Positions 7,302 to 63,413 of a stretch of 64,000 bases of DNA are shown here, in pieces. How positions within the stretch are numbered: the first letter of the stretch is position 1; each line of letters opens with the position of its first letter. A model generated the notes under the pieces. The model had not been told where the DNA came from. It did no database searches and saw nothing but the letters and a program-made list of their open reading frames with translations. Origin of the DNA: a virus; IMG/VR virus record IMGVR_UViG_3300038299_000097, positions 10,816 through 74,815 of that record. One strand, given 5' to 3'. The translations under genes were made by a program, and so were the position numbers.

Positions 7302-7548
7302 TTATAAAAGAGTCCAAGAACTCGCCAAAATTTTTGAAGATTATTGGATTCCATTCGACATTGTACCACTTGATGTAGGTGGAACTAATATGGTTGTTAA
7401 TAAACTAACAGACCATAAATCAGGGTCTGTATATATCGAAAGGTTTGACCCAAGTGTTAATTCATTTACAGTGTATAAATTTGATAAATTCAATGTACCT
7501 AAAGAGTGGCAAATTGAAGAAGATTCTGACGTTACAGTAACCGTCTAA
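7291..7548 (+). CDS. Hypothetical protein
   Basis: Coupled ORF. Confidence 0.55.
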   Translation: MKTDYKRVQELAKIFEDYWIPFDIVPLDVGGTNMVVNKLTDHKSGSVYIERFDPSVNSFTVYKFDKFNVPKEWQIEEDSDVTVTV

Positions 7549-7733
7549 CCACACGATTTACATTTAGAGCGTTTAGATCGTGGTCTGTTAGATTTTGGGG
7601 TGGTACCACGCCTAATACTCAATATTTGTGAGCGACTCTTGCAATATTTATCACAATAGTTATCCACACCTCTTCGAGTTTCGGGCACTTCTAAGGACTT
7701 ACCACATTCTTTACATACAACGGTGATATTCAT
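7545..7733 (-). CDS. Small basic zinc-finger-like protein
   Basis: CKEC, CDKYC and CKSC motifs; TAATTA-N5-ATG. Confidence 0.6.
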   Translation of the reverse strand: MNITVVCKECGKSLEVPETRRGVDNYCDKYCKSRSQILSIRRGTTPKSNRPRSKRSKCKSCG

Positions 7734-7778
7734 AAACTTAATTATAGACTTATACCATATAGTTTATTAATTAAGTTT

Positions 7779-8561
7779 ATGTCTGACATTAATTCTATTA
7801 TAGCAGGTCTTAGTAAACTCAATGATGAGAATACTATCACTTTCAATTTACCCCTTTCAAAAATCGAGGTGACTCTTAAACCATTTCAATCTAAACACGG
7901 TAGTATGGTAAACAGTTCACTAGTTGCGGGTGCCGATGGTACCTATGGTCTTAAATTCATGCCCCTTATCAAGGATATTTTTGATGATATTCTAACATTA
8001 GATGAAGGTAAAACTTATCATAATTTACCATTGGTTGATGTTCATTATATAATCCTAAAAATCAGGGAGACCTTCAACGATGAGGTTATTATTAATTACG
8101 GAACTGATGAACAGACCTCTGTTAATATTAAACATATCATTAGAGGTTTCAATGATCTTAAGATCGATGATAAACCGATAGTGGTAGGTGATGAAATTTG
8201 TTCAGTGGAGGTAGTACAACCATCATTTACAAAAACTTTAAAGTTTGACAATATTCTCATCGCATCGCACGAGAGGTTTTCAGAAAAAGAAAGTGAACAA
8301 CTTGTTAAAGATGCTCTAGCATTTACAATGCTCAAATTTATAAAAAGTATTAAACTGGTTATTGATAACGAAGAACAAAGTGTTACATTATCAGACTATA
8401 ACCCAATGGAGCAGAAGAAGCTGCTTAATATGATACCAAACACTCTTTATAAGGATATCATGAACGCTGTAAAGGGTATAACTGACCCTATGGAGGATCT
8501 GTTACGAATTGATGAGGAAACTGTAGTAGTTATAGATCAGAGTATCTTAGTAGACGTTTAA
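7779..8561 (+). CDS. Baseplate hub assembly protein (gp26-like)
   Basis: LPLSKIEVTLKPF and LPLVDVHYIILKIR motifs; TAATTA motif. Confidence 0.6.
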   Translation: MSDINSIIAGLSKLNDENTITFNLPLSKIEVTLKPFQSKHGSMVNSSLVAGADGTYGLKFMPLIKDIFDDILTLDEGKTYHNLPLVDVHYIILKIRETFNDEVIINYGTDEQTSVNIKHIIRGFNDLKIDDKPIVVGDEICSVEVVQPSFTKTLKFDNILIASHERFSEKESEQLVKDALAFTMLKFIKSIKLVIDNEEQSVTLSDYNPMEQKKLLNMIPNTLYKDIMNAVKGITDPMEDLLRIDEETVVVIDQSILVDV

Positions 8562-25604: not shown

Positions 25605-25633
25605 ATTGACAGGGGTGTAATTATTATGTACAA
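25605..25633 (+). promoter_or_regulatory. Sigma70-type promoter for nrdAB
   Basis: TTGACA-N17-TACAAT. Confidence 0.7.
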
Positions 25634-25646
25634 TACTATGACTGAT

Positions 25647-27887
25647 ATGGAAAAAGAGATACGAATTGTGAAGAGGGACGGAGTTGAAGAGAACTTCAAA
25701 ATAGACAAAATTACAAAAATACTGGAGTGGGCATGTGAAGGGATCGAGGATGTGGTACCAGACCATATATTATACAACGCTAAGTTAAATGTTTTTGACG
25801 GCATTAAATCTAGTGAGATACACCAAATCATTGTGGAGTCTGCTGCAAGCCTTATTGATAAAGAGGTTAATTACACCAAGGTTGCGGCAAGCCTTATGAA
25901 TTATAAACTTCGTAAAGAGGTTTGGGGTGGTAAGAACCCACCAAAGCTTTATGATCTCCTCAAGAAGGGTATTAAGAAAGGCTTCTACGACCCAGAGCTT
26001 ATCAAAATTTACACCAAGGCTCAGATCAATAAGCTTGATGAGTATATCAAGCATGATAGGGACAGTCGTTTTGAGTATGGTGGTCTAGTACAACTTACGG
26101 AGAAGTATTTAGTACAGAACCGTAACACCAAGGAGATCGTGGAAACGCCCCAATTTGCGTACATGATGGCATCGATGGCACTTTGTATCAAAGAAGCACC
26201 ACGACAGCGTGTGAAGTGGGTGAAGGAGTTCTATGATGACTTCTCTAATCATAAGATCAACGTGTCCACACCAATTATGTCGGGTGCAAGAACAAGAGTC
26301 CGTAGCTATTCATCATGTTGTATTATTGACGTAGCTGATACTAAGCATTCCATCACATCATCTGTCACATCATCTGTGTTGGTTACTGCTGATAAGTATG
26401 GTATTGGACTCAACTATTCTAAGATCCGTTCTATCAATGAACCAATCCGTGGCGGGGAAGCTTCACACGGTGGTGTAATCCCTTGGTTGAAACTCAGTCA
26501 AGCAGCGATTCAAGCATCACAGCAAGGACCTAGACGTGGTGCGGGTACGTGTACGTTCTTCGCAATGCATCCAGAGATCGAAACTATCCTACAATTAAAG
26601 GATACACTTCTTCCAGAGGACAGAAAGGTCGAGCACTTGGATTACTCCATTGCTATGACAAACCTATTCTACCACAGACTACTAGAAGGTGGTGACATTA
26701 CGTTGTGTTCATATAACCAAGCACCAGATGTTTACAAGGCATATGGTACACCATTTTTCAACGATATCTATGAAAAGTGGGAGCTGGAGAATCCAGATGC
26801 ACCCAAGATTACTACCGAAAGGTTCTTCTCATTACTCGCTAAACAACGTAGTGAGACTGCTAGAATTTACATCTACAACATTGACGAGAACTTCACCAAC
26901 TCTGCTTGGTTGCCTCGTGTTGAGGCATATAATTTATGTCAAGAAGTGGGTGGACCTACTAAACCCGAACGGTTCACAGAAGACCCAGAAGCTGAAACGG
27001 TTGTGTGTGTCCTCAGTGCCCCCAATGCATGTAATATAAAGGATGATGCGGATCACAAGAGAGTACTTTACAACATTGTTCGTATCCTTGATAACGTCAT
27101 CGATGTACAGGAGTACACGGTGGATGCTTGTAAGAGGTATGCAGAGAACAAACGCTCACTTGGTGTTGGTATTAGTAACCTAACAGGTTGGCTCGCACTC
27201 CAAGGTCTTAACCACTCATCTATTGAGACACCACAGGTGGTTTCAGACTTCTTCGAGAAACAACAATACTACCTTATTGAAGCATCTATTGAACTAGCTA
27301 AAGAGCGTGGTAAGTGTAAGGATTTCAACCAGTCTAAATACTCTAAAGGTATTATGCCAGTGGATCGTTACAATAAGAATGTTCATGAGTTCCTTGATGA
27401 AGAACACAAGCTCGACTGGGACAGGATCAGAGCAGCAGTATTGAAGTATGGTATGAGACATTGTACTCTATCATCATTCATGCCATGTGAAGCTAGTTCG
27501 GTTGTACAGTCATCTACTAACGGGTTTGAACCAATTCGTGACCTAGTGGTGTACAAAGAATCCAAGACAGCAATGACTATTGTAGTAGCACCAAATGTGA
27601 AGACACATGGTCAACACTATGTTAGAGCTTATGACGCACCTAACAACGATGGTTACATCAAAGTAGTAGCAGTACTGACTAAGTGGTCTGACATGGGTGT
27701 TAGTGGTAATCTATACTACAACCCTGCATACTTCGAAGGTGGTATCATCCCACAAGATTACATCATCCAAGATATCCTCACAGCAACCCGATACGGTTGG
27801 AGAACTTTCTACTACCATAACACCGATGATGGTGATAAGGAAGTAAGCGAAGATAGTGCTTGCGCCTCTGGTGCTTGCTCACTATAA
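25647..27887 (+). CDS. nrdA: Ribonucleotide reductase class Ia alpha subunit
   Basis: ATP-cone IVKRDG, SSCC, NLCQE, TFYY and C-terminal CASGAC; exact start uncertain. Confidence 0.95.
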   Translation: MEKEIRIVKRDGVEENFKIDKITKILEWACEGIEDVVPDHILYNAKLNVFDGIKSSEIHQIIVESAASLIDKEVNYTKVAASLMNYKLRKEVWGGKNPPKLYDLLKKGIKKGFYDPELIKIYTKAQINKLDEYIKHDRDSRFEYGGLVQLTEKYLVQNRNTKEIVETPQFAYMMASMALCIKEAPRQRVKWVKEFYDDFSNHKINVSTPIMSGARTRVRSYSSCCIIDVADTKHSITSSVTSSVLVTADKYGIGLNYSKIRSINEPIRGGEASHGGVIPWLKLSQAAIQASQQGPRRGAGTCTFFAMHPEIETILQLKDTLLPEDRKVEHLDYSIAMTNLFYHRLLEGGDITLCSYNQAPDVYKAYGTPFFNDIYEKWELENPDAPKITTERFFSLLAKQRSETARIYIYNIDENFTNSAWLPRVEAYNLCQEVGGPTKPERFTEDPEAETVVCVLSAPNACNIKDDADHKRVLYNIVRILDNVIDVQEYTVDACKRYAENKRSLGVGISNLTGWLALQGLNHSSIETPQVVSDFFEKQQYYLIEASIELAKERGKCKDFNQSKYSKGIMPVDRYNKNVHEFLDEEHKLDWDRIRAAVLKYGMRHCTLSSFMPCEASSVVQSSTNGFEPIRDLVVYKESKTAMTIVVAPNVKTHGQHYVRAYDAPNNDGYIKVVAVLTKWSDMGVSGNLYYNPAYFEGGIIPQDYIIQDILTATRYGWRTFYYHNTDDGDKEVSEDSACASGACSL

Positions 27888-28010: not shown

Positions 28011-29084
28011 ATGAGTAACACAGTTTTAAATCTAGAGAAGCGTGATGCATTGGCTGAACCAATGTTTTTCGGCACACCCCTTGGAATCCAACGTTTCGAC
28101 GTGGTTAAATATCCAGAGTTTGCAAAGTCCGTAGAGACACAATTTTCCAACATGTGGAACCCAAAGGAGATAGGTATGGCATCAGACCTAGCTTGTTATG
28201 AATCACTCTCAGATACCGAGAGATTCATCTTCGAGACAAATCTTCGATTCCAGACAGCGGGTGATTCACTACTTTCCAGAAGTATTGAAGCAATCAAACA
28301 ACATGTCACAAACTCAGAACTTGAGTACGCAATGAACTGGTGGGGTCTTATGGAGAATATTCACTCCGAGAGTTACACCCACGTACTACAAGGGATCACT
28401 AAAGATCCTACACCATTCTTCGATTCTATTCTAGAAGACACAGAACTGGTTGAACGTATGCAGACCATCATCAAACCCTTCAATGACCTTCTTGAAGATA
28501 AGGAAGGTGACTGTAAGCGCACGAAATTATTCAAAGCGGTGTTGGCACTACAAATTGCTGAAGGTGTTCTATTCTACACATCATTTGCATGTAGTTTCTT
28601 CTTCGCTAAGAACGGTAAGATGACCCAGAACGGTAAGATCATTTCTATGATTAAGCGTGATGAGTCAGAGCACCAATCAATCACACAGAACATACTCAAG
28701 AGAATGCGCGAAGATCCGTCCGAGGGGTTCCAAGATATCGTAAAGGCTCATGAACAATTCGTTTATGATTCATACGAGGTTGCACTTGATGGTGAAAAGA
28801 AGTGGGGTGATTACTTATTCTCTAAGGGTGAGATGGTCGGACTTACTAAAGCATCTCTCCATGGCTATGCTGAGTGGAATGTTCGTGGTCGTTTGAGATC
28901 CAATGGTTATGATCCATCAAAGTTTGCTTACCCACTAGCAGAACAGAATCCTATTTCATGGTTGGTTAAATTCCTTGACTCAAGTCGTGTACAGGCGGCA
29001 CCTCAAGAGATCGAGAAGACTGATTATAAGAAGATGGGAACTGTAAACAATCTTGGTAGTTCGCTTAAGACATTAAAATTCTAA
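28011..29084 (+). CDS. nrdB: Ribonucleotide reductase class Ia beta subunit
   Basis: ENIHSESY, EGVLFYTSF, RDESEH and QAAPQE motifs. Confidence 0.95.
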   Translation: MSNTVLNLEKRDALAEPMFFGTPLGIQRFDVVKYPEFAKSVETQFSNMWNPKEIGMASDLACYESLSDTERFIFETNLRFQTAGDSLLSRSIEAIKQHVTNSELEYAMNWWGLMENIHSESYTHVLQGITKDPTPFFDSILEDTELVERMQTIIKPFNDLLEDKEGDCKRTKLFKAVLALQIAEGVLFYTSFACSFFFAKNGKMTQNGKIISMIKRDESEHQSITQNILKRMREDPSEGFQDIVKAHEQFVYDSYEVALDGEKKWGDYLFSKGEMVGLTKASLHGYAEWNVRGRLRSNGYDPSKFAYPLAEQNPISWLVKFLDSSRVQAAPQEIEKTDYKKMGTVNNLGSSLKTLKF

Positions 29085-29102: not shown

Positions 29103-29131
29103 TTGACACTGATTTAAAACTGTGCTAATCT
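29103..29131 (+). promoter_or_regulatory. Sigma70-type promoter P1 of the ncRNA array
   Basis: TTGACA-N17-TAATCT; unit 1 starts 7 nt downstream. Confidence 0.75.
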
Positions 29132-29137
29132 AAGTAT

Positions 29138-29225
29138 GTCACCAGCTACAGGAAGGATATATATAATTCAGTCGGGATCACCCTTCGGGGCATCCCCGAT
29201 CCAACAACCTTCCTAATACGGTGAC
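29138..29225 (+). ncRNA. Y-RNA-like unit 1 (apical cUUCGg hairpin)
   Basis: gtcacc/ggtgac stem, AGCUA/AAUAC internal loop, aggaagg/ccttcct stem, ccc-ttcg-ggg. Confidence 0.7.
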
Positions 29226-29380
29226 TATAAATAAAACGCCCAGCCACGGCTGGGTTATATTATAAAACTGAAGTCGAAAGACATTGGGGGTTCGAGTCCC
29301 TCACTTCCCACTCGACGGGAAGTTGGCGAAATTGGTAGACGCATCAGATCAACTCATCCAATTCGGGCGTTTTATTTATA
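29226..29380 (+). ncRNA. Y-RNA-like unit 2 with permuted tRNA-Leu-like domain (YrlA-like)
   Basis: Perfect 16-bp terminal stem; AGCCA/AAUUC loop; then variable arm, T-arm (29286-29302), closed acceptor stem acttccc/gggaagt, D-arm tggcgaaattggtagacgca. Confidence 0.8.
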
Positions 29381-29384
29381 TTCA

Positions 29385-29473
29385 GATCAAATGAAAACAG
29401 TTCCTCAGCTAAGTGTATGTTATTTATATTCAAAACACACATACCCAATTCGGGGAGTTGTTTTCATTTGATT
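29385..29473 (+). ncRNA. Y-RNA-like unit 3 (minimal)
   Basis: About 22-bp terminal stem, AGCUA/AAUUC loop, gtatgt/acatac stem, AU-rich loop ending tcaaaacac. Confidence 0.7.
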
Positions 29474-29549
29474 TAAGAGAACGTCTATCTCTGGGACGGT
29501 ACTCCGTTACCAGTAGCGTCTTGTTATAAAGATAATGTCAAAACAGTTG

Positions 29550-29577
29550 TTGACAATATGATCAAACCTGTTAAAGT
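29550..29577 (+). promoter_or_regulatory. Sigma70-type promoter P2 of the ncRNA array
   Basis: TTGACA-N16-TAAAGT; unit 4 starts 7 nt downstream. Confidence 0.7.
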
Positions 29578-29583
29578 AATTGT

Positions 29584-29646
29584 GTCACCAGCTAAGAGAG
29601 TGTTATTTAAATGAAATCAAAACACACACACTCTCAATACGGTGGC
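29584..29646 (+). ncRNA. Y-RNA-like unit 4 (minimal)
   Basis: gtcacc/ggtggc stem, AGCUA/AAUAC loop, gagagtgt/acactctc stem, loop ending tcaaaacac as in unit 3. Confidence 0.7.
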
Positions 29647-29792
29647 TATAAATATGGCATTCAGCTAGGTATAAGTTAAACTATTAAACAATTGGTCACA
29701 GGTTCAAATCCTGTCATCTCAGCCTTATGGGATGTAGCTCAGTCTGGTAGAGCAGTTGATACAACTTGTACGATTCGGGTGCCATATTTATA
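29647..29792 (+). ncRNA. Y-RNA-like unit 5 with permuted tRNA-Asn-like domain (YrlA-like)
   Basis: 16-bp terminal stem; AGCUA/GAUUC loop; T-arm acagg-ttcaaat-cctgt, closed acceptor catctca/tgggatg, D-arm tagctcagtctggtagagc. Confidence 0.8.
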
Positions 29793-29825: not shown

Positions 29826-31868
29826 ATGTTACTATCCGAAAACGCAGTATATGTTCAGCCTTCTAAGTCAGCTCGTAGTAAGAGCAACTCAGTTAAAATT
29901 GCTAACCTGCTCTCTATTGAGTTAATGAACTACGGTATTCAGCTAAGTGCCGACCTTCGTAATTCAATTTCCAAGCTTAATGCCAAGGACGCTCAGTCAG
30001 TAGCTACTGAGATCCTTAAGGCTAACACCATGGGTAGTCTAACACCACCACTTTTCCGTAATTGGGAACAGCGTAATGCGTTCACCACTGGGGAGATCAT
30101 TGTGCAACTCTTTGCATACGTATTCCAAATCTCTGGTAATGATCTTTATGATCCAGAGTTCCTCAACAACCTTGACCGTGATTTTGATTACACCAAGACG
30201 CTCAACCTTGCTACCAAGGATGACGCAACCAAGAAGTTCAGCACTCTTGCAACCACACGAGTGCCACTCGACATGGCTTCTATGCAACTTGTAGTACAAC
30301 TTGCTAAGACACTTCCTTTGGACAACTGTGAACGTATCTTCTCTGATGAAGTTCGTGTGGCTGTTATCGACGGTGATGGCGGTTGTGACTTTAAATCTTT
30401 CAAAGGGCGACCAACTGACGTTCTTAAACTCTTCGCACTCCGCAAGAATCAAAACACTCTCGACATGAAACTACCTGTCGATGTCAAATTTGACGCCCTC
30501 TCATGGTCTGAGAGAATCAAAACACTTGAGTTCCTTGAGTCCTTCGGTTTCGAATATCTATCTGAAGAGATGGGTAAGAACCGTGGAGCTTGGTCTAAGT
30601 TCTTCAACCACATTCATGCTTTCGGGCAGAAGGGTTGGAGTAATAGATTCCCTAATTTCATGATGGCATCAATGGCATCCGTTCAACGTAATATTAGTCT
30701 AGTAGATAAGAAGACCGTCAAAGGTTTCTCAGAACTAATACTTAGTGGTGGCGTTGAAGTGGTTTCTAATAAGTTTGTTTACCGTACATTCGCTTCCCGT
30801 GTAGAATCAACACTCAAAAACTACAAGACATTTGATCAAGTGGTTGCAGTGTTTGGTAACAAGGGTTCTTATGTTCTCAACAACTTGACCTCTATTTCTA
30901 ACAAGATCAAGAAGGCAGACTCTCGTAAGTTTGTGGAGCTTGTTCGTGGGTTTCTTACCAATGCACCAGTCAAAACTCTGTTCTCTATTCTATCTATCGA
31001 TGTGAATGCAGAGTGGCGTGTGATTGATGTTAAGGGTAGCACCAAGATCGAAACTGCCAACTATAGTTCTGTCATTGGTGACATCCAAGGTGACATCAAG
31101 ATCGCCCTACATGAGCGTTTCGGGTTCGAGGGTAAGGTAACAGTCGATAAAGAGCTTGCGACACTAGGTGTGCCATTCTTGACCACTAGTTCACAACTTA
31201 GCCGTGGTACTCGTTACTCATTCACTGATGACGAATATCTCTACTTCTTCATGAAGTGGATTCAGCCAGAGAATCGGACTACAGATCTTGACCATAGCCT
31301 TCTTTACTTCGATGCGGATTGGAATTCACAACACGTTTCATTCTCTCGTCAAGTTGATACATTCATCCGACATGGTGGTGACATCACCAGTGCGCCAGCC
31401 CCACATGGTGCCAGTGAATACTCACGAGTTGATCTCAAACTAATCCCGAAAGCTGTTAAGTACATCGTACCATCAGTGTTCGTATATAGAGGTACTAAAC
31501 TTTCATTGAATGATGAGGCATATGCAGGATTCTACTTCGGTGATAACGATTCGTTCTCCCTTAAACAGGAACACACACGTTACGACTTCACTCAGCCATC
31601 AGGGTTTAACGTACCATTCATCATCGACGTTGAGAATCGCGAGATTGTAGTGGTGGATTATAACCAAGAGACCTCTGGTAATGTTGTTCAGTCTGCTGTA
31701 TGTGATATCAAGAACCTCATCAGTGCTACGAATTCTAAGAACTACATCACCGTTGAGGATCTAGCAGAGATTCTATCTGGTGATAAGGATACCACATCCT
31801 TAAATATCTCAAACGATAGTGGCGATGGTATAGTAGCACCACAGGATTTATTCTCACTGTTCGCATAA
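29826..31868 (+). CDS. Helical protein with C-terminal TerD-like domain; candidate Ro60/TROVE-like RNA-binding protein
   Basis: N-terminal ELMNYG...PLFRNW; C-terminal W...DLDHS...HGGDITSAP..GASEY; directly downstream of the RNA array. Confidence 0.65.
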   Translation: MLLSENAVYVQPSKSARSKSNSVKIANLLSIELMNYGIQLSADLRNSISKLNAKDAQSVATEILKANTMGSLTPPLFRNWEQRNAFTTGEIIVQLFAYVFQISGNDLYDPEFLNNLDRDFDYTKTLNLATKDDATKKFSTLATTRVPLDMASMQLVVQLAKTLPLDNCERIFSDEVRVAVIDGDGGCDFKSFKGRPTDVLKLFALRKNQNTLDMKLPVDVKFDALSWSERIKTLEFLESFGFEYLSEEMGKNRGAWSKFFNHIHAFGQKGWSNRFPNFMMASMASVQRNISLVDKKTVKGFSELILSGGVEVVSNKFVYRTFASRVESTLKNYKTFDQVVAVFGNKGSYVLNNLTSISNKIKKADSRKFVELVRGFLTNAPVKTLFSILSIDVNAEWRVIDVKGSTKIETANYSSVIGDIQGDIKIALHERFGFEGKVTVDKELATLGVPFLTTSSQLSRGTRYSFTDDEYLYFFMKWIQPENRTTDLDHSLLYFDADWNSQHVSFSRQVDTFIRHGGDITSAPAPHGASEYSRVDLKLIPKAVKYIVPSVFVYRGTKLSLNDEAYAGFYFGDNDSFSLKQEHTRYDFTQPSGFNVPFIIDVENREIVVVDYNQETSGNVVQSAVCDIKNLISATNSKNYITVEDLAEILSGDKDTTSLNISNDSGDGIVAPQDLFSLFA

Positions 31869-31917: not shown

Positions 31918-31957
31918 ATTGACACAAACCGCCAAATATAGTAAGGTCTCTCCACAG

Positions 31958-33880
31958 ATGAATATACCCGTAGAACCACAGAACACAGTGAAGTCCAATA
32001 ATTTCGAGACTTCAGAGATGACCATCGAACTTGGTCAGATTAATATGGTAGCCCAGATTGTTAGGGATAAGATTTATACTGATAAACCCATGGCACCAGT
32101 TCGAGAGTATGGGTGCAATGCACTTGACGAACACCTAAAGCATAATGTTGGAAGGATGGTCGAGTTCACTATTGATGATATTAAAAGTACATTCAGCGTG
32201 AGGGACTTCGGTCTAGGACTTAGTAATGATTTTGTAATGAAAGTCTACGGCATGATAGGTAAGACCACTAAGAAGGATGACGACACCCAGACTGGTGGGT
32301 ATGGTCTAGGCTCTAAGTCTGGACATGCTTACGGTGATCAGTTCACTATCACGTCATACTACGGCGGTAAGAAGACTGTATACATTGCCATCCTTGAAGG
32401 AGATGGTGTACCAATTGGTGTGATCAACAAGGTTAGTGTAACAGACACTGATGAACCAACTGGTGTTGAGATCTCACTACCTATTAAAGATGGTGAACTA
32501 CCCTCATTCAAAGATCGCATGTCAACATTCCTTAAGGGTGTTCGTACTGACGTTGTGTACAATGGTGAGGTTCATAATGAAAGACACCCAACGGTTGAAG
32601 GCCATAGCCACATCCACCACAGTGCTTCCCATGTTAGAATGGGTGATGTTATCTATAAGATTGATTTCCCTACACAGTTCACCAAGAACAATATTCCTAT
32701 CACAATCGATGCACCGTTAACCTCTCTAACATTCCCCCCAAGCCGTGAGTCTATCGATAACACACCACACAACCAAAAGGTTATAGATGACATTATCAAT
32801 GAGTACATGGCTATTGAGGATCTAAAATTTAAAGAGTTGCTTAAGACTGAGAAGGTGAACACACTACTCAAACTTGCCACATCAACCCAGACATACAGGT
32901 ATCTTGTAACTCTCAATAACTATGTTAAAGACGGTCTTACTATATCAACCAAGACTCAACTTGGTTATGTGATGGCAAATAATGATATACTTATGAGCTA
33001 TATGGATCAGCGTGATGGTTATGAAGTTTTCAAACATAATCGTGATCAGAACGCTAAACCTAAGAAGATGGAACTTAGTACGATTGAGATGACTAACTTC
33101 TTCATATCTAAAAGGCGGTGTGGTGTACCACTATCTAACGAGATCGTTAAGCACTATGATAAAGACGATCTTAAATATGACAAATACTGTACAGAGTTCT
33201 CGGTTATATATGAACACAAAGGTAACCAAGAATTCATCACAGAGCTTCGCAAGGTTCTAGAGTGTCGTGATCTTGATGAAGACGTGTACATTAAAACCAA
33301 TGTTACCAGAGCCGCAACCAAAGCTCGTAGAGGTAAGGTAGAGTTCAGTAAACTTAATAAAGTAGAGTATGGTAGAATTAGAAATAATGATACCGACATC
33401 AATTCTCTTGTTAAGTCATACCCATTATTCTACTCCGACTGGCAGGATTATTCCAGACGTACAAAACAACCTTACTATAAACTCACCAAGGTACAATTTG
33501 AATACCTAAAATCTAAGGGTTATAAGATGGTTCATATGACTAATATGAATGATACACTAAAACAGATGGTGTATGATAAGTCTACCAAGCTAGAACGTTT
33601 CCAGTATGCTAAGTATAGGTTCATAGAAAAGTCTGATGTTCGTAAACATTTTGCCAAGGGTGTTATGTTTAAGCAACCTAGATATAAGAAATCATTTGAT
33701 GCATTCAAAGATATTGATTATGATGAGTCTGTTGAGTATAAGAAGTTTATTGACATTCTAGGTAGAGTGAGTGATAATATATTACCTTCTTGGAAAGTTC
33801 GAGCAATGAAAAGGCTCGCAGGTTTCAACGGTGCTACAGAACACAAAGAGGCAATGGATATAATTTTACACGCAAAATAA
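31958..33880 (+). CDS. rIIA: rIIA-like protein (N-terminal GHKL/HATPase domain)
   Basis: IYTDKPMAPVREYGCNALD, SVRDFGLG and GGYGLGSKS motifs; adjacent to rIIB. Confidence 0.88.
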   Translation: MNIPVEPQNTVKSNNFETSEMTIELGQINMVAQIVRDKIYTDKPMAPVREYGCNALDEHLKHNVGRMVEFTIDDIKSTFSVRDFGLGLSNDFVMKVYGMIGKTTKKDDDTQTGGYGLGSKSGHAYGDQFTITSYYGGKKTVYIAILEGDGVPIGVINKVSVTDTDEPTGVEISLPIKDGELPSFKDRMSTFLKGVRTDVVYNGEVHNERHPTVEGHSHIHHSASHVRMGDVIYKIDFPTQFTKNNIPITIDAPLTSLTFPPSRESIDNTPHNQKVIDDIINEYMAIEDLKFKELLKTEKVNTLLKLATSTQTYRYLVTLNNYVKDGLTISTKTQLGYVMANNDILMSYMDQRDGYEVFKHNRDQNAKPKKMELSTIEMTNFFISKRRCGVPLSNEIVKHYDKDDLKYDKYCTEFSVIYEHKGNQEFITELRKVLECRDLDEDVYIKTNVTRAATKARRGKVEFSKLNKVEYGRIRNNDTDINSLVKSYPLFYSDWQDYSRRTKQPYYKLTKVQFEYLKSKGYKMVHMTNMNDTLKQMVYDKSTKLERFQYAKYRFIEKSDVRKHFAKGVMFKQPRYKKSFDAFKDIDYDESVEYKKFIDILGRVSDNILPSWKVRAMKRLAGFNGATEHKEAMDIILHAK

Positions 33881-33881
33881 T

Positions 33882-34862
33882 ATGAAGAAAACAGAATACG
33901 CTTATAGCAATGGTGGCGTAACAATAATCAATATGCTAACAGGGGAACCCACCTCGTTCGAGTCGGGGTCTAAGGACTATGATTTTGTATTGGAGAACAT
34001 CGATGACGATGATCAACTATATAGAATCGTTACAGAAGGTATCGAACAATTCTTTGAAAAGGAGTTGGTCAACATCTTTGATGAACACAAGGACTTTATC
34101 ATGGTGGCTGGTCACAAAGTGAAGAACCACCTTGTATCAACTTGGATCGATATCCGACACAAGGGTGGTGATACCCAAGCGTATGAACTATTCCTTGAGA
34201 ACCTAGCTCGTAATCCATCAGCCACATCCATCAAGGAATTGGTAGACTTCCTATCACACGGGGGTTTCCCTATCACTGAAGATGGTTGCTTCCTAGCATA
34301 CAAGGGAGTCCAAACAAATGGTTGGAGTGTTAAAGGTAACTTGGACACCGTGGTGTTAGAGGGTGATACCAACTCAAAGGGTCAGATCAACAACGTACTA
34401 GGGGGTACCATCCGTATCAAACGAGCATCATGTGATGATGACCGTAAGAAGACATGTAGTTTTGGTGTCCACGTTGGTACTTTTAACTATGCATCTAACT
34501 GGGGTGATCGACTTGTACTGGTCAAGGTCAATCCAGAAGACGTGGTGTCTGTACCAGTTGATGGTTATGAGAAGCTCCGTTGTTGTGCCTATAGTGTCGA
34601 GAAGCTTTATGGTAAGGCTGAGGGTGAATTAGAACAATCAACTGCTAACATCGTTGAAGGTGAGATTGTCACCGCTGACACTGCTGTAACGGTTGCTGAT
34701 ATGGTCAAACTGGCGATTTATGAATACAACTGCTTCAAGGTGTGTGACGTAGAAATGTGGGTCCGTTGTGAGTATAGTATAGCACTCAACGAGGTTCAAA
34801 TCATCAATGCTGTTAAGGAATTGGGTATGCGCGTTGTCGGCGTTGACACGATTCTGGTCTAG
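33882..34862 (+). CDS. rIIB: rIIB-like protein
   Basis: PITEDGCFLAYKGV, CSFGVHV and VKVNPEDVVSVPVD..KLRCC motifs. Confidence 0.9.
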   Translation: MKKTEYAYSNGGVTIINMLTGEPTSFESGSKDYDFVLENIDDDDQLYRIVTEGIEQFFEKELVNIFDEHKDFIMVAGHKVKNHLVSTWIDIRHKGGDTQAYELFLENLARNPSATSIKELVDFLSHGGFPITEDGCFLAYKGVQTNGWSVKGNLDTVVLEGDTNSKGQINNVLGGTIRIKRASCDDDRKKTCSFGVHVGTFNYASNWGDRLVLVKVNPEDVVSVPVDGYEKLRCCAYSVEKLYGKAEGELEQSTANIVEGEIVTADTAVTVADMVKLAIYEYNCFKVCDVEMWVRCEYSIALNEVQIINAVKELGMRVVGVDTILV

Positions 34863-63332: not shown

Positions 63333-63339
63333 ATAAAGG

Positions 63340-63413
63340 TTGGCGTGGTAGGATTTGAACCTACATTGTCTCCTCAAAACGGAGAGCGTAATAACCAGTT
63401 ATACTACACGCCA
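63340..63413 (-). tRNA. tRNA, anticodon read as UUU (Lys) with atypical loop GTTTTGA
   Basis: TGGCGTG/CACGCCA acceptor; TCTCC/GGAGA anticodon stem; GTAGG-TTCAAAT-CCTAC T-arm. Confidence 0.75.

What the first reader, a model, noticed from the sequence alone, without database searches (positions are those of the whole stretch)
29678..29762. Second, independently derived permuted tRNA (Asn-like) retaining an anticodon-loop-like heptamer
Seen: ctattaa-acaat-tggtc, T-arm, catctca-g-cc, then tgggatg-tagctcagtctggtagagc-agttga. Rearranged, it resembles tRNA-Asn (normal loop CUGUUAA; here CUAUUAA, whose AUU also reads an Asn codon). The discriminator G and the CC of CCA survive in the linker. It shares little sequence with unit 2, so two different tRNAs were captured into the same carrier. 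Inference: the displayed anticodon-like strands could be bait for tRNA-specific anticodon nucleases, with the array diversifying against different host toxins.
Basis: partly seen in the sequence, partly recalled or inferred. Interest (0 to 1): 0.78.

Follow-up and report, generated by a model that had tools for sequence, protein, structure and literature searches.

The report
tRNA-shaped domain in phage Y-like RNA
The "permuted tRNA" is real, but it is best read as a tRNA-shaped tip on one unit of a previously undescribed array of small structured phage RNAs that always sits beside one conserved phage protein, much like bacterial Y RNAs beside Ro60, and not as a working tRNA or a bait made from an anticodon.

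Summary
Window 29688-29759 (+) holds a complete tRNA body in the order anticodon-stem 3' strand, variable loop, T arm, acceptor 3' strand, 6-nt linker GCCUUA, acceptor 5' strand, D arm, anticodon-stem 5' strand. There is no closed anticodon loop. Rfam YrlA scores it at 41.2 bits (E 1.8e-7), the same as closed-acceptor RNAs in phage contigs that encode true Ro60 (36-41 bits).

This body is the tip of module 5 (29647-29792), one of five hairpin modules. The shared scaffold is an outer stem, an invariant C-AGCUA-N / A-A/C-U-U-C-G internal loop, an inner stem, and an apical loop starting N-U-A-U-U. My covariance model finds 57 such modules in 18 loci. All lie just upstream of homologues of the adjacent 680-aa gene, and covariation is strong.

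The 680-aa protein has a TerD C-terminal domain. Its helical N-domain matches Ro60 best with one structural aligner (Z 8.4 and 7.6), but Foldseek and sequence searches show no Ro60 signal.

The heptamer CUAUUAA overlaps the scaffold's own UAUU motif, so the anticodon-bait reading is not supported. Modules 2 and 5 share homologous junctions, so independent capture is doubtful. The Asn assignment is weak.

Verdict: a YrlA-type tRNA mimic on a new carrier, a new variant of a known kind.

The parts
29103..29131 (+). Promoter-like site P1 (TTGACA, 17 nt, TAATCT), 7 nt before module 1
   Evidence: Read from the sequence. The consensus scan did not list it.
29138..29225 (+). Carrier module 1, whose apical loop holds an extra hairpin
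   Evidence: Model R1 gives 44.6 bits, E 6e-9.
29226..29380 (+). Carrier module 2, with a Leu-like (class II) closed-acceptor tRNA body
   Evidence: ARAGORN calls the de-permuted form a tRNA. It aligns with module 5.
29401..29457 (+). Carrier module 3 (core); a longer basal stem spans about 29384-29474
   Evidence: Model R1 gives 41.3 bits.
29550..29577 (+). Promoter-like site P2 (TTGACA, 16 nt, TAAAGT, with TG), 7 nt before module 4
29584..29646 (+). Carrier module 4 (plain)
   Evidence: Model R1 gives 50.7 bits, E 1e-10.
29647..29792 (+). Carrier module 5, whole: 16-bp outer stem (29647-29662 with 29777-29792), internal loop AGCUAG (29663-29668) opposite GAUUC (29772-29776), 9-bp inner stem (29669-29677 with 29763-29771)
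   Evidence: Stem-and-loop scan. MFE fold and proposed fold, -46.7 and -42.6 kcal/mol.
29678..29687 (+). It overlaps the carrier's UAUU motif.
29688..29759 (+). tRNA-like domain: anticodon-stem 3' strand, variable loop, T arm 29698-29714, acceptor 3' strand 29715-29721, linker GCCUUA 29722-29727, acceptor 5' strand 29728-29734, D arm 29737-29753, anticodon-stem 5' strand 29755-29759
   Evidence: Rfam YrlA 41.2 bits over model positions 23-88. ARAGORN. Coordinates.
29760..29762 (+). 3' junction strand UAC
29826..31868 (+). 680-aa protein P0001, the presumed RNA partner: helical N-domain (about 1-460) plus a TerD-fold domain (465-631)
   Evidence: Structure models, pLDDT 83.5 and 80.7. TerD fold, Z 14.8 and Foldseek E 5e-7. 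Ro60 takes the top two places for the N-domain, Z 8.4 and 7.6. NF041916 partial match. Synteny with the RNA modules.

Best explanation
Module 5 is one unit of a phage array of small structured RNAs. It is built on a conserved scaffold of outer stem, C-AGCUA-N / A-A/C-U-U-C-G internal loop, inner stem and an apical loop that starts N-U-A-U-U. In module 5 the variable tip of that loop has been replaced by a complete tRNA-shaped domain whose acceptor stem is closed by a short loop and which has no anticodon loop. This is the topology of the tRNA-like domain of bacterial and phage YrlA-type Y RNAs.

Shown:
- The domain exists and keeps every nucleotide that shapes the tRNA elbow.
- The scaffold is a real, covarying RNA family.
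- The scaffold is found only immediately upstream of homologues of the adjacent 680-aa gene.
- The + strand is the RNA strand.

Inferred:
- The conserved internal loop is the docking site for the 680-aa protein (helical, possibly Ro60-like ring, plus a TerD domain), giving a Y-RNA-like ribonucleoprotein.
- The tRNA-shaped tip serves as the effector or stabilising end. It would be recognised by host enzymes that read tRNA shape (TruB, Dus, TrmA and similar).
- Because it has a 7-bp acceptor stem followed by G-C-C, it is probably cut by RNase P before U29728, trimmed and given a terminal A. This was shown for Mycobacterium smegmatis YrlA. The two halves would stay paired through the 9-bp and 16-bp carrier stems.

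On this reading the G and CC in the linker are functional. The heptamer is carrier and junction sequence, not a displayed anticodon.
For: The tRNA-like domain:
- Rfam YrlA gives 41.2 bits, E 1.8e-7, over the T arm / acceptor / D arm part of the model.
- Closed-acceptor RNAs from other viral contigs score 35.8-41.1 bits over the same model span. Three of those five contigs encode a TROVE/Ro60 protein, including both that are at least 90% complete. M5's sub-threshold score is therefore normal for this phage RNA class.
- ARAGORN accepts the de-permuted body.

The carrier:
- Model R1 finds 57 modules in 172 kb, all on the + strand and all just upstream of the gene.
- It finds none in 125 kb of loci that hold only distant relatives.
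- In four related viral contigs (289 kb) it finds modules nowhere outside the array.
- 95.7% of cells are paired, against 30-46% when partners are slid. 306 cells are compensatory, against 34-68.
- G-U pairs number 52 and A-C pairs 6, so the + strand is the RNA.

The protein:
- TerD fold.
- For the N-domain alone, the top two of 48,161 chains are Ro60. These are phage phiLo, Z 8.4 over 264 residues, and D. radiodurans Rsr, Z 7.6 over 270 residues. The next unrelated hit scores 5.5 over 118 residues or fewer.
- Genuine Ro60 orthologues differ from each other by 5.8-6.5 A (PMC12135203).

Precedents:
- Y RNAs lie upstream of Ro60 in bacteria and phages.
- M. smegmatis YrlA, which has a 7-bp acceptor stem, is cut by RNase P and gains CCA in vivo.
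- YrlB carries a lone T arm (PMC4201824). Here L015:1752-1818 carries a lone T arm.
Against: - No binding, expression or processing data exist; the phage is uncultured.
- M5 does not reach Rfam's YrlA gathering score (41.2 against 69).
- The published Ro60-binding motif GNCGAAN0-1G/CGAA is absent from the + strand RNA.
- The protein shows no TROVE signal by Pfam, by PDB sequence profile, by Foldseek or by the ESM Atlas.
- Its sequence relatives are the uncharacterised MXAN_6230/SCO0854 RING-TerD family.
- The Ro60 resemblance rests on one aligner, at Z values the tool itself calls middling for helical proteins.
- Model R1 does not itself detect modules 2 and 5, because the insert is too long. 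They are placed in the family by manual and scripted structure and by alignment.
Confidence: 0.58

Rival explanations
1. Decoy or bait for host tRNA-targeting nucleases. The tRNA-shaped body, with CUAUUAA shown as a pseudo-anticodon, soaks up or blocks an anticodon nuclease or another tRNA-directed defence toxin.
For: The heptamer fits the Y-U-NNN-R-A pattern of anticodon loops. It abuts the anticodon-stem 3' strand exactly and differs from the Asn loop CUGUUAA by one base. Two different tRNA bodies in one array would suit two targets. From general knowledge, phages are known to answer tRNA-cleaving defences with their own tRNAs.
Against: - There is no closed anticodon stem-loop: 10 nt face 3 nt.
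- UAUU at this place is the carrier's own invariant motif in 57 of 57 modules without a tRNA. xUAUUAA occurs in four of them.
- Unit 2's equivalent heptamer matches no Leu anticodon, and the junctions of units 2 and 5 are homologous.
- Relatives carry no tRNA body at all.
- A decoy for enzymes that read the elbow or acceptor rather than the anticodon is not excluded.
Confidence: 0.12
2. Processing or stability signal. The tRNA-shaped body is an RNase P 'punctuation' site that cuts the polycistronic RNA and leaves the downstream 680-aa mRNA with a base-paired, protected 5' end. The modules would be a cis-acting leader, not trans-acting RNAs.
For: - Module 5 ends 33 nt before the start codon, with no U-run terminator.
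- Each cassette reads promoter, plain module, tRNA module.
- A 7-bp acceptor stem is the main RNase P determinant (PMC4201824).
Against: - Relatives keep the arrays without any tRNA body.
- In L006 single modules have their own TTGACT-17-TATAAT promoters. In L005 and L007 the last module is followed by a U-run, as expected of separate small RNAs.
- In L015 and L022 small ORFs separate groups of modules.
- This rival can coexist with the RNP model.
Confidence: 0.14
3. A true permuted tRNA gene, as in the red alga Cyanidioschyzon merolae. The transcript is circularised and recut to give a working tRNA-Asn.
For: The 3' half precedes the 5' half. The body is complete, with G73 and CC in the linker.
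Against: - No anticodon loop can be formed. The two 'anticodon-stem' strands run into a 9-bp and then a 16-bp helix shared with non-tRNA modules.
- There is no bulge-helix-bulge site.
- Position 31-39 is an A-A mismatch.
- A34 is almost never used in bacteria (own knowledge).
- The same scaffold carries non-tRNA tips in 57 modules.
Confidence: 0.03
4. A decaying relic. A tRNA fragment or gene junction was inserted by recombination near a tRNA cluster and has no function of its own.
For: - In relatives L004 and L006 a tRNA gene array lies directly downstream of the protein gene, so donors are at hand.
- The first BLAST hit was to a tRNA-Met|tRNA-Asn gene junction.
Against: - All tertiary-interaction nucleotides and a perfect 7-bp acceptor stem are kept.
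- The BLAST hit reflects only a generic T arm and D arm.
- Two such bodies are kept in homologous junctions.
Confidence: 0.05

Closest known systems
YrlA-type bacterial and phage Y RNAs (Rfam RF02553; Chen et al. 2014, PMC4201824)
   Same: - A long basal stem with an internal loop, and a tRNA-like domain at the far end in the order T arm, closed acceptor stem, D arm, with no anticodon loop.
- Encoded in small arrays just upstream of the partner protein gene.
- The 7-bp acceptor stem followed by G-C-C resembles M. smegmatis YrlA, which is cut by RNase P and gains CCA.
- The YrlA model score (41 bits) equals that of closed-acceptor RNAs in viral contigs that encode TROVE proteins.
   Different: - The score is below Rfam's gathering score.
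- The Ro60-binding motif GNCGAAN0-1G is absent. The carrier has C-AGCUA-N / AAUUC-G and an apical UAUU instead.
- The neighbouring protein has no detectable TROVE sequence and carries TerD where Ro60 has vWA.
- Most family members have no tRNA-like domain.
Ro60/Rsr (TROVE + vWA), including Thermus phage phiLo Ro60 with Yrl1 and Yrl2 (PMC12135203)
   Same: - The gene lies directly downstream of its candidate RNAs.
- The architecture is a helical repeat domain followed by a C-terminal metal-binding beta-rich domain.
- Ro60 chains are the best two structural matches of the N-domain with VIA-align.
   Different: - There is no sequence similarity, and Foldseek finds nothing.
- The C-terminal domain is TerD, not vWA.
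- Sequence relatives are the uncharacterised MXAN_6230/SCO0854 RING-TerD family.
Permuted tRNA genes of Cyanidioschyzon merolae
   Same: The 3' half of the tRNA lies upstream of the 5' half, joined by a short linker at the acceptor end.
   Different: Those genes break inside loops and rebuild a complete tRNA through a circular intermediate at a bulge-helix-bulge site. Here the anticodon end opens into a long helix of a carrier RNA, and no anticodon loop can form.
Permuted (two-piece) tmRNA and T4 stable RNAs rnaC and rnaD
   Same: These are tRNA-like parts in non-tRNA phage or bacterial RNAs. T4 rnaC ends in a T arm plus acceptor-like 3' end.
   Different: - Rfam permuted tmRNA scores only 14.9 bits, and ARAGORN finds no tmRNA in the contig, hence no tag reading frame.
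- Model R1 finds nothing in the T4 tRNA/rnaC/rnaD region.

Membership tests
YrlA (Rfam RF02553) | Reaches the family's curated gathering score (69 bits) | tested here: not met
   M5 scores 41.2 bits over model positions 23-88 of 114. Closed-acceptor RNAs in viral contigs that encode TROVE also reach only 35.8-41.1 bits.
YrlA (Rfam RF02553) | A tRNA-like domain in the order T arm, closed acceptor-like stem, D arm, with tRNA tertiary nucleotides | tested here: met
   cmscan alignment, ARAGORN on the de-permuted body and the nucleotide check.
YrlA (Rfam RF02553) | The Ro60/Rsr-binding motif GNCGAAN0-1G in the 5' strand of the basal stem | tested here: not met
   The motif is absent from module 5 and from all 57 modules. 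The conserved loop is C-AGCUA-N / A-A/C-U-U-C-G. The motif definition comes from PMC4201824.
YrlA (Rfam RF02553) | Encoded next to a TROVE-domain (Ro60) gene | tested here: inconclusive
   There is no Pfam TROVE in the own contig or in two related contigs. The adjacent protein's N-domain has Ro60 as its top two VIA-align matches, but Foldseek and sequence searches find nothing.
YrlA (Rfam RF02553) | Bound by Ro60 in vivo and modified by TruB and DusA | not testable with these tools
   This needs immunoprecipitation and modification mapping.
Permuted tRNA gene (C. merolae type) | The 3' half lies upstream of the 5' half, and together they make a full tRNA body | tested here: met
Permuted tRNA gene (C. 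merolae type) | The transcript ends form a bulge-helix-bulge, and joining them restores an intact 7-nt anticodon loop | tested here: not met
   The ends continue into a 9-bp helix and a 16-bp helix. The junction is 10 nt opposite 3 nt, and position 31-39 is A-A.
   The structure scan finds module 5 with a 16-bp outer stem and a 9-bp inner stem. UAUU lies 5 nt out of register. R1 itself does not span the 85-nt insert.
   Module 5 ends 33 nt before the ATG at 29826. The same holds for 57 modules in 18 loci.
Ro60/TROVE protein (for P0001) | TROVE sequence signature (Pfam PF05731) | tested here: not met
   None of 43 family members hit TROVE at E <= 1. The PDB profile search gives nothing.
Ro60/TROVE protein (for P0001) | A ring of HEAT-like repeats | tested here: inconclusive
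   VIA-align gives Z 8.4 and 7.6 over about 265 residues, the top two of 48,161 chains. Foldseek finds no significant match.
Ro60/TROVE protein (for P0001) | A C-terminal vWA domain with a MIDAS site | tested here: not met
   Residues 465-631 form a TerD fold, Z 14.8. 23 of 43 members hit Pfam TerD.

The most novel reading that the evidence does not exclude
T4-like uncultured phages encode an undescribed ribonucleoprotein. It would combine a RING-less relative of the MXAN_6230/SCO0854 family, with a Ro60-like helical ring plus TerD, and arrays of 1-6 'plug-and-play' small RNAs. These RNAs would dock through an invariant AGCUA/AAUUC internal loop and display exchangeable tips. In this phage two tips are full tRNA bodies that are opened by RNase P and given CCA. 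The Leu-like one has A73 and a long variable arm, and LeuRS does not read the anticodon, so it might even be aminoacylated. That would tether host tRNA-handling machinery to the particle.
Probability: 0.35. Interest if true: 0.8.

Novelty: new variant of a known kind. Interest (0 to 1): 0.6.

Why it matters
Y RNAs and Ro60 are conserved from bacteria to humans, yet what the tRNA-like end of bacterial Y RNAs does is still unknown. This locus offers three things:

- The same tRNA-shaped module sits on a different, strongly covarying scaffold, next to a protein with no detectable TROVE sequence. Either Ro60-like particles are far more diverse than sequence searches show, or tRNA mimicry on a protein-docking stem has evolved twice.
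- Relatives of this family carry no tRNA tip, a lone T arm, or a full class I or class II body. That is a natural series for testing what the tip contributes.
- It gives a first functional handle, RNA binding, on the uncharacterised MXAN_6230/SCO0854 RING-TerD protein family.

It also corrects a tempting reading. The anticodon-like heptamer is most simply scaffold sequence.

Tried and rejected
- Standard tRNA and tmRNA detection: ARAGORN and Rfam at gathering threshold find only tRNA-Lys at 63338-63413.
- BLAST of the whole array against cultured phages gave only a 60-nt hit to a tRNA-Met|tRNA-Asn gene junction in Pseudomonas phage phiK7B1. Inspection shows a generic T arm and D arm, not a donor.
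- Isotype by half-searches and by comparison with 21 tRNAs of related loci: no clear donor, best 67%.
- Orthologue of module 5:
  - The search for related loci with P0001 and P0002 found nothing in viral contigs. With A1 and A3 it found the same 4 loci.
- T4 rnaC and rnaD: no match to model R1.
- TROVE by sequence: absent in the own contig and in two related contigs. Also absent in Pfam scans of all 43 homologues, in the PDB profile search and in the ESM Atlas.
- Foldseek on the N-domain gave only weak ARM/HEAT hits.
- No cultured phage has a full-length homologue.
- Cellular relatives: no R1 modules and no relevant Rfam hit beside them.
- Minus-strand transcription, which would turn AAUUCG into a CGAA-like motif, is rejected by 52 G-U against 6 A-C pairs, by the promoters and U-runs, and by the tRNA motifs.
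- The literature searches for permuted tRNAs in phages and for a TerD/TROVE link gave nothing relevant.

Full report
**The observation.** The window is 64 kb of a 74.8-kb IMG/VR viral contig, estimated about 33% complete. The phage is T4-like:
- nrdA at 25626-27887 and nrdB at 28011-29084
- rIIA at 31919-33880 and rIIB at 33882-34862

The 740-nt gap between nrdB and a 680-aa ORF (29826-31868) is non-coding. It folds far better than shuffled sequence (z = -7.9).

It is a tRNA body in permuted order, with a perfect 7-bp acceptor stem closed by the 6-nt linker GCCUUA. All nucleotides that build the tRNA elbow are present.

Rfam's YrlA model describes this very topology. It scores the element at 41.2 bits, E 1.8e-7, over the T arm / acceptor / D arm positions 23-88. 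ARAGORN calls the de-permuted sequence a tRNA.

**What surrounds it.** The body is the tip of a 146-nt hairpin, module 5 (29647-29792). Module 5 is the last of five modules that share one plan:
- an outer stem
- an internal loop, 5'-AGCUAN-3' opposite 5'-AAUUC-3' (variants AAUAC, GAUUC)
- an inner stem of 7-9 bp
- an apical region

Modules 1, 3 and 4 have plain or hairpin tips. Modules 2 and 5 have tRNA bodies, Leu-like class II and class I respectively.

The 680-aa protein (P0001) has no Pfam hit. It has 48 homologues at about 40% identity in metagenomes.

I fetched 4 viral and about 20 metagenomic loci that encode full-length homologues. A simple structure scan found 1-5 copies of the same module immediately upstream of the gene in nearly every one. 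An alignment of 43 short modules shows an invariant C-AGCUA and CG, and stems that vary freely.

I built covariance model R1 from that alignment. Its results:
- It finds 57 modules in 172 kb, all on the + strand and all in the upstream arrays. These include 14 modules that were not used to build it.
- It finds none in 125 kb of loci that hold only distant relatives.
- In four related viral contigs (289 kb) it finds modules nowhere except the array.

Covariation is strong:
- 95.7% of cells are paired, against 30-46% when the partners are slid.
- 306 cells are compensatory, against 34-68.

G-U pairs outnumber A-C pairs 52 to 6, so the + strand is the RNA. Rfam 15 holds no family for the module.

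**The heptamer.** In all 57 modules the apical loop begins N-U-A-U/A-U/A (U 57/57, A 57/57, U 55/57, U 45/57). Four non-tRNA modules read xUAUUAA there.

Module 2 keeps the motif in register (UUAUAUUAUAAAAC). Module 5 reads UUAAAC and then CUAUUAAAC.

Modules 2 and 5 align through the whole carrier and both junctions: UAUUA(U)AAAC on the 5' side and GAU(A)CAACU on the 3' side. The alignment includes the C40-G30 pair and the A31-A39 mismatch. The bodies in between share only universal tRNA positions.

Unit 2's equivalent heptamer, UUAUAAA, also fits Y-U-NNN-R-A but matches no Leu anticodon.

In the fold the heptamer is part of a 10-nt strand opposite 3 nt, not a closed loop. The simplest reading is that CUAUUAA is A/U-rich scaffold and junction sequence. 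The two tRNA modules are then paralogous cassettes whose bodies were exchanged, not two independent captures.

The label 'Asn' is weak. The 5' half matches phage tRNA-Asn, Ile and Ala. The 3' half matches tRNA-Ile best. Only G73 favours Asn.

**The protein.** AlphaFold models are confident (pLDDT 83.5 for the whole protein, 80.7 for the N-domain).

Residues 465-631 form a TerD fold (Foldseek E 5e-7; VIA-align Z 14.8). 23 of 43 homologues hit Pfam TerD.

With the whole model, Ro60 structures took ranks 3, 4 and 8. With the N-domain alone they took ranks 1 and 2 of 48,161 chains:
- phage phiLo Ro60: Z 8.4, 264 residues, 4.9 A
- D. radiodurans Rsr: Z 7.6, 270 residues
- next unrelated rows: Z 5.5 or less, over 118 residues or fewer

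True Ro60 orthologues differ from one another by 5.8-6.5 A (PMC12135203).

Several searches show no TROVE signal:
- Foldseek
- Pfam
- a PDB sequence profile
- the ESM Atlas

By sequence the protein is a RING-less relative of NCBIfam NF041916, 'MXAN_6230/SCO0854 family RING domain-containing protein' (E 2e-47, below the family cut-off). More distant relatives carry Prok-RING_4 and TerD. Ro60-likeness is therefore a structural lead, not a finding.

**Comparison with known Y RNAs.** Chen et al. (PMC4201824) showed four things:
- YrlA RNAs lie next to Ro60 in more than 250 bacteria and phages.
- They carry exactly this closed-acceptor tRNA-like domain.
- M. smegmatis YrlA, the one with a 7-bp acceptor stem, is cut by RNase P and receives CCA in vivo.
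- YrlB has a lone T arm.

Module 5 has the 7-bp stem followed by G-C-C. A relative, L015:1752-1818, has a lone T arm as its tip.

As a control I pulled closed-acceptor elements from viral contigs with a pattern scan. 43 of the first 118 matches had complementary acceptor strands. Six that I tested score 35.8-41.1 bits on YrlA over the same model span. Of the five of those contigs searched for TROVE, three encode a TROVE protein, including both that are at least 90% complete.

M5's sub-threshold 41 bits is therefore typical of RNAs from Ro60-encoding phages, although the control RNAs were not shown to lie beside the TROVE gene. What differs is the docking part. The published GNCGAAN0-1G/CGAA motif is absent and is replaced by the AGCUA/AAUUC loop. 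The partner protein also differs.

**Mechanism.**

Shown:
- a tRNA-shaped domain
- a covarying carrier family
- strict synteny with one protein family
- the + strand as the RNA strand
- promoter-like sites before modules 1 and 4
- separate promoters and U-runs around modules in relatives

Inferred:
- The carrier loop docks the 680-aa protein.
- The tip is an exchangeable effector or stabiliser.
- The tRNA tip is handled by host tRNA enzymes, and RNase P plus the CCA-adding enzyme open the linker.

Rivals, with my probabilities:
- nuclease decoy, 0.12
- RNase P punctuation or leader, 0.14
- true permuted tRNA, 0.03
- relic, 0.05

**Limits.**
- R1 does not span modules 2 and 5.
- There are no expression or binding data.

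**Verdict.** The finding is real. It is best classed as a YrlA-type tRNA mimic on a new carrier, beside a new candidate partner protein. That makes it a new variant of a known kind. The anticodon-bait idea is not supported. Earlier first-stage notes on this same genome had already proposed the Y-RNA-like array and the helical-TerD partner. No look-alikes were on record from other genomes.

Noticed in passing
window 29226-29233 and 29647-29654 (also 29373-29380 and 29785-29792 on the other strand): TATAAATA, the T4 late-promoter consensus, forms the first 8 nt of the outer stems of both tRNA-bearing modules. Its complement closes them. Late transcripts starting just downstream would have a much shorter outer stem.
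   Followed up: no
window 29826-31868 (P0001): The protein is a RING-less partial match to NCBIfam NF041916, the MXAN_6230/SCO0854 family (162 bits, cut-off 600). The N-domain profile reaches 466 proteins. Many are about 700-870 aa with Prok-RING_4 at the N-terminus and TerD at the C-terminus, mostly actinobacterial.
   Followed up: partly
L006:1880-2430; L005:2460-2475; L007:2462-2480: In a relative, three successive modules each have their own TTGACT-17-TATAAT promoter. In two others the last module is followed by a U-run. This is what separately transcribed small RNAs would look like.
   Followed up: partly
L004:4670-4826; L006:4648-6687: In two related phages an array of up to 13 tRNA genes lies directly downstream of the homologue of the 680-aa gene. 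This is a possible source of the tRNA bodies found in this phage's modules.
   Followed up: partly
L015:1752-1818; L006:1938-2016 and 2078-2171; window 29138-29225: Other module tips carry different payloads: a lone T-arm-like hairpin (GTGG-TTCAAAT-CCAC), a T-loop-like hairpin (CGGG-TTTGAAC-TCCCG), a long hairpin, and a hairpin capped by UUCG.
   Followed up: partly
L186, L215, L217, L236, L260, L277, L290 (viral contigs): Closed-acceptor tRNA-like RNAs in other viral contigs share a GUUACUUCG motif 5' of the T arm. ACUUCG also occurs as the 3' loop strand of many carrier modules here, on the opposite side of the tRNA domain. This may be coincidence or a shared protein contact.
   Followed up: no
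L184, L214, L240, L244, L257, L206, L219, L223, L231 (viral contigs): A further group of closed-acceptor tRNA-like elements is flanked by ACAGCA(U/A)A-type motifs, within large tRNA arrays. L240 also holds a GOLLD RNA (7545-8034). L206 shows tandem 114-nt 'tRNA' hits that bridge neighbouring units.
   Followed up: no
L015:1927-2220; L022:2032-2343: Small ORFs of about 100 aa sit between groups of modules in two relatives.
   Followed up: no
window 63338-63413 (-): tRNA-Lys(UUU) is the only standard tRNA gene in the 74.8-kb contig.
   Followed up: no
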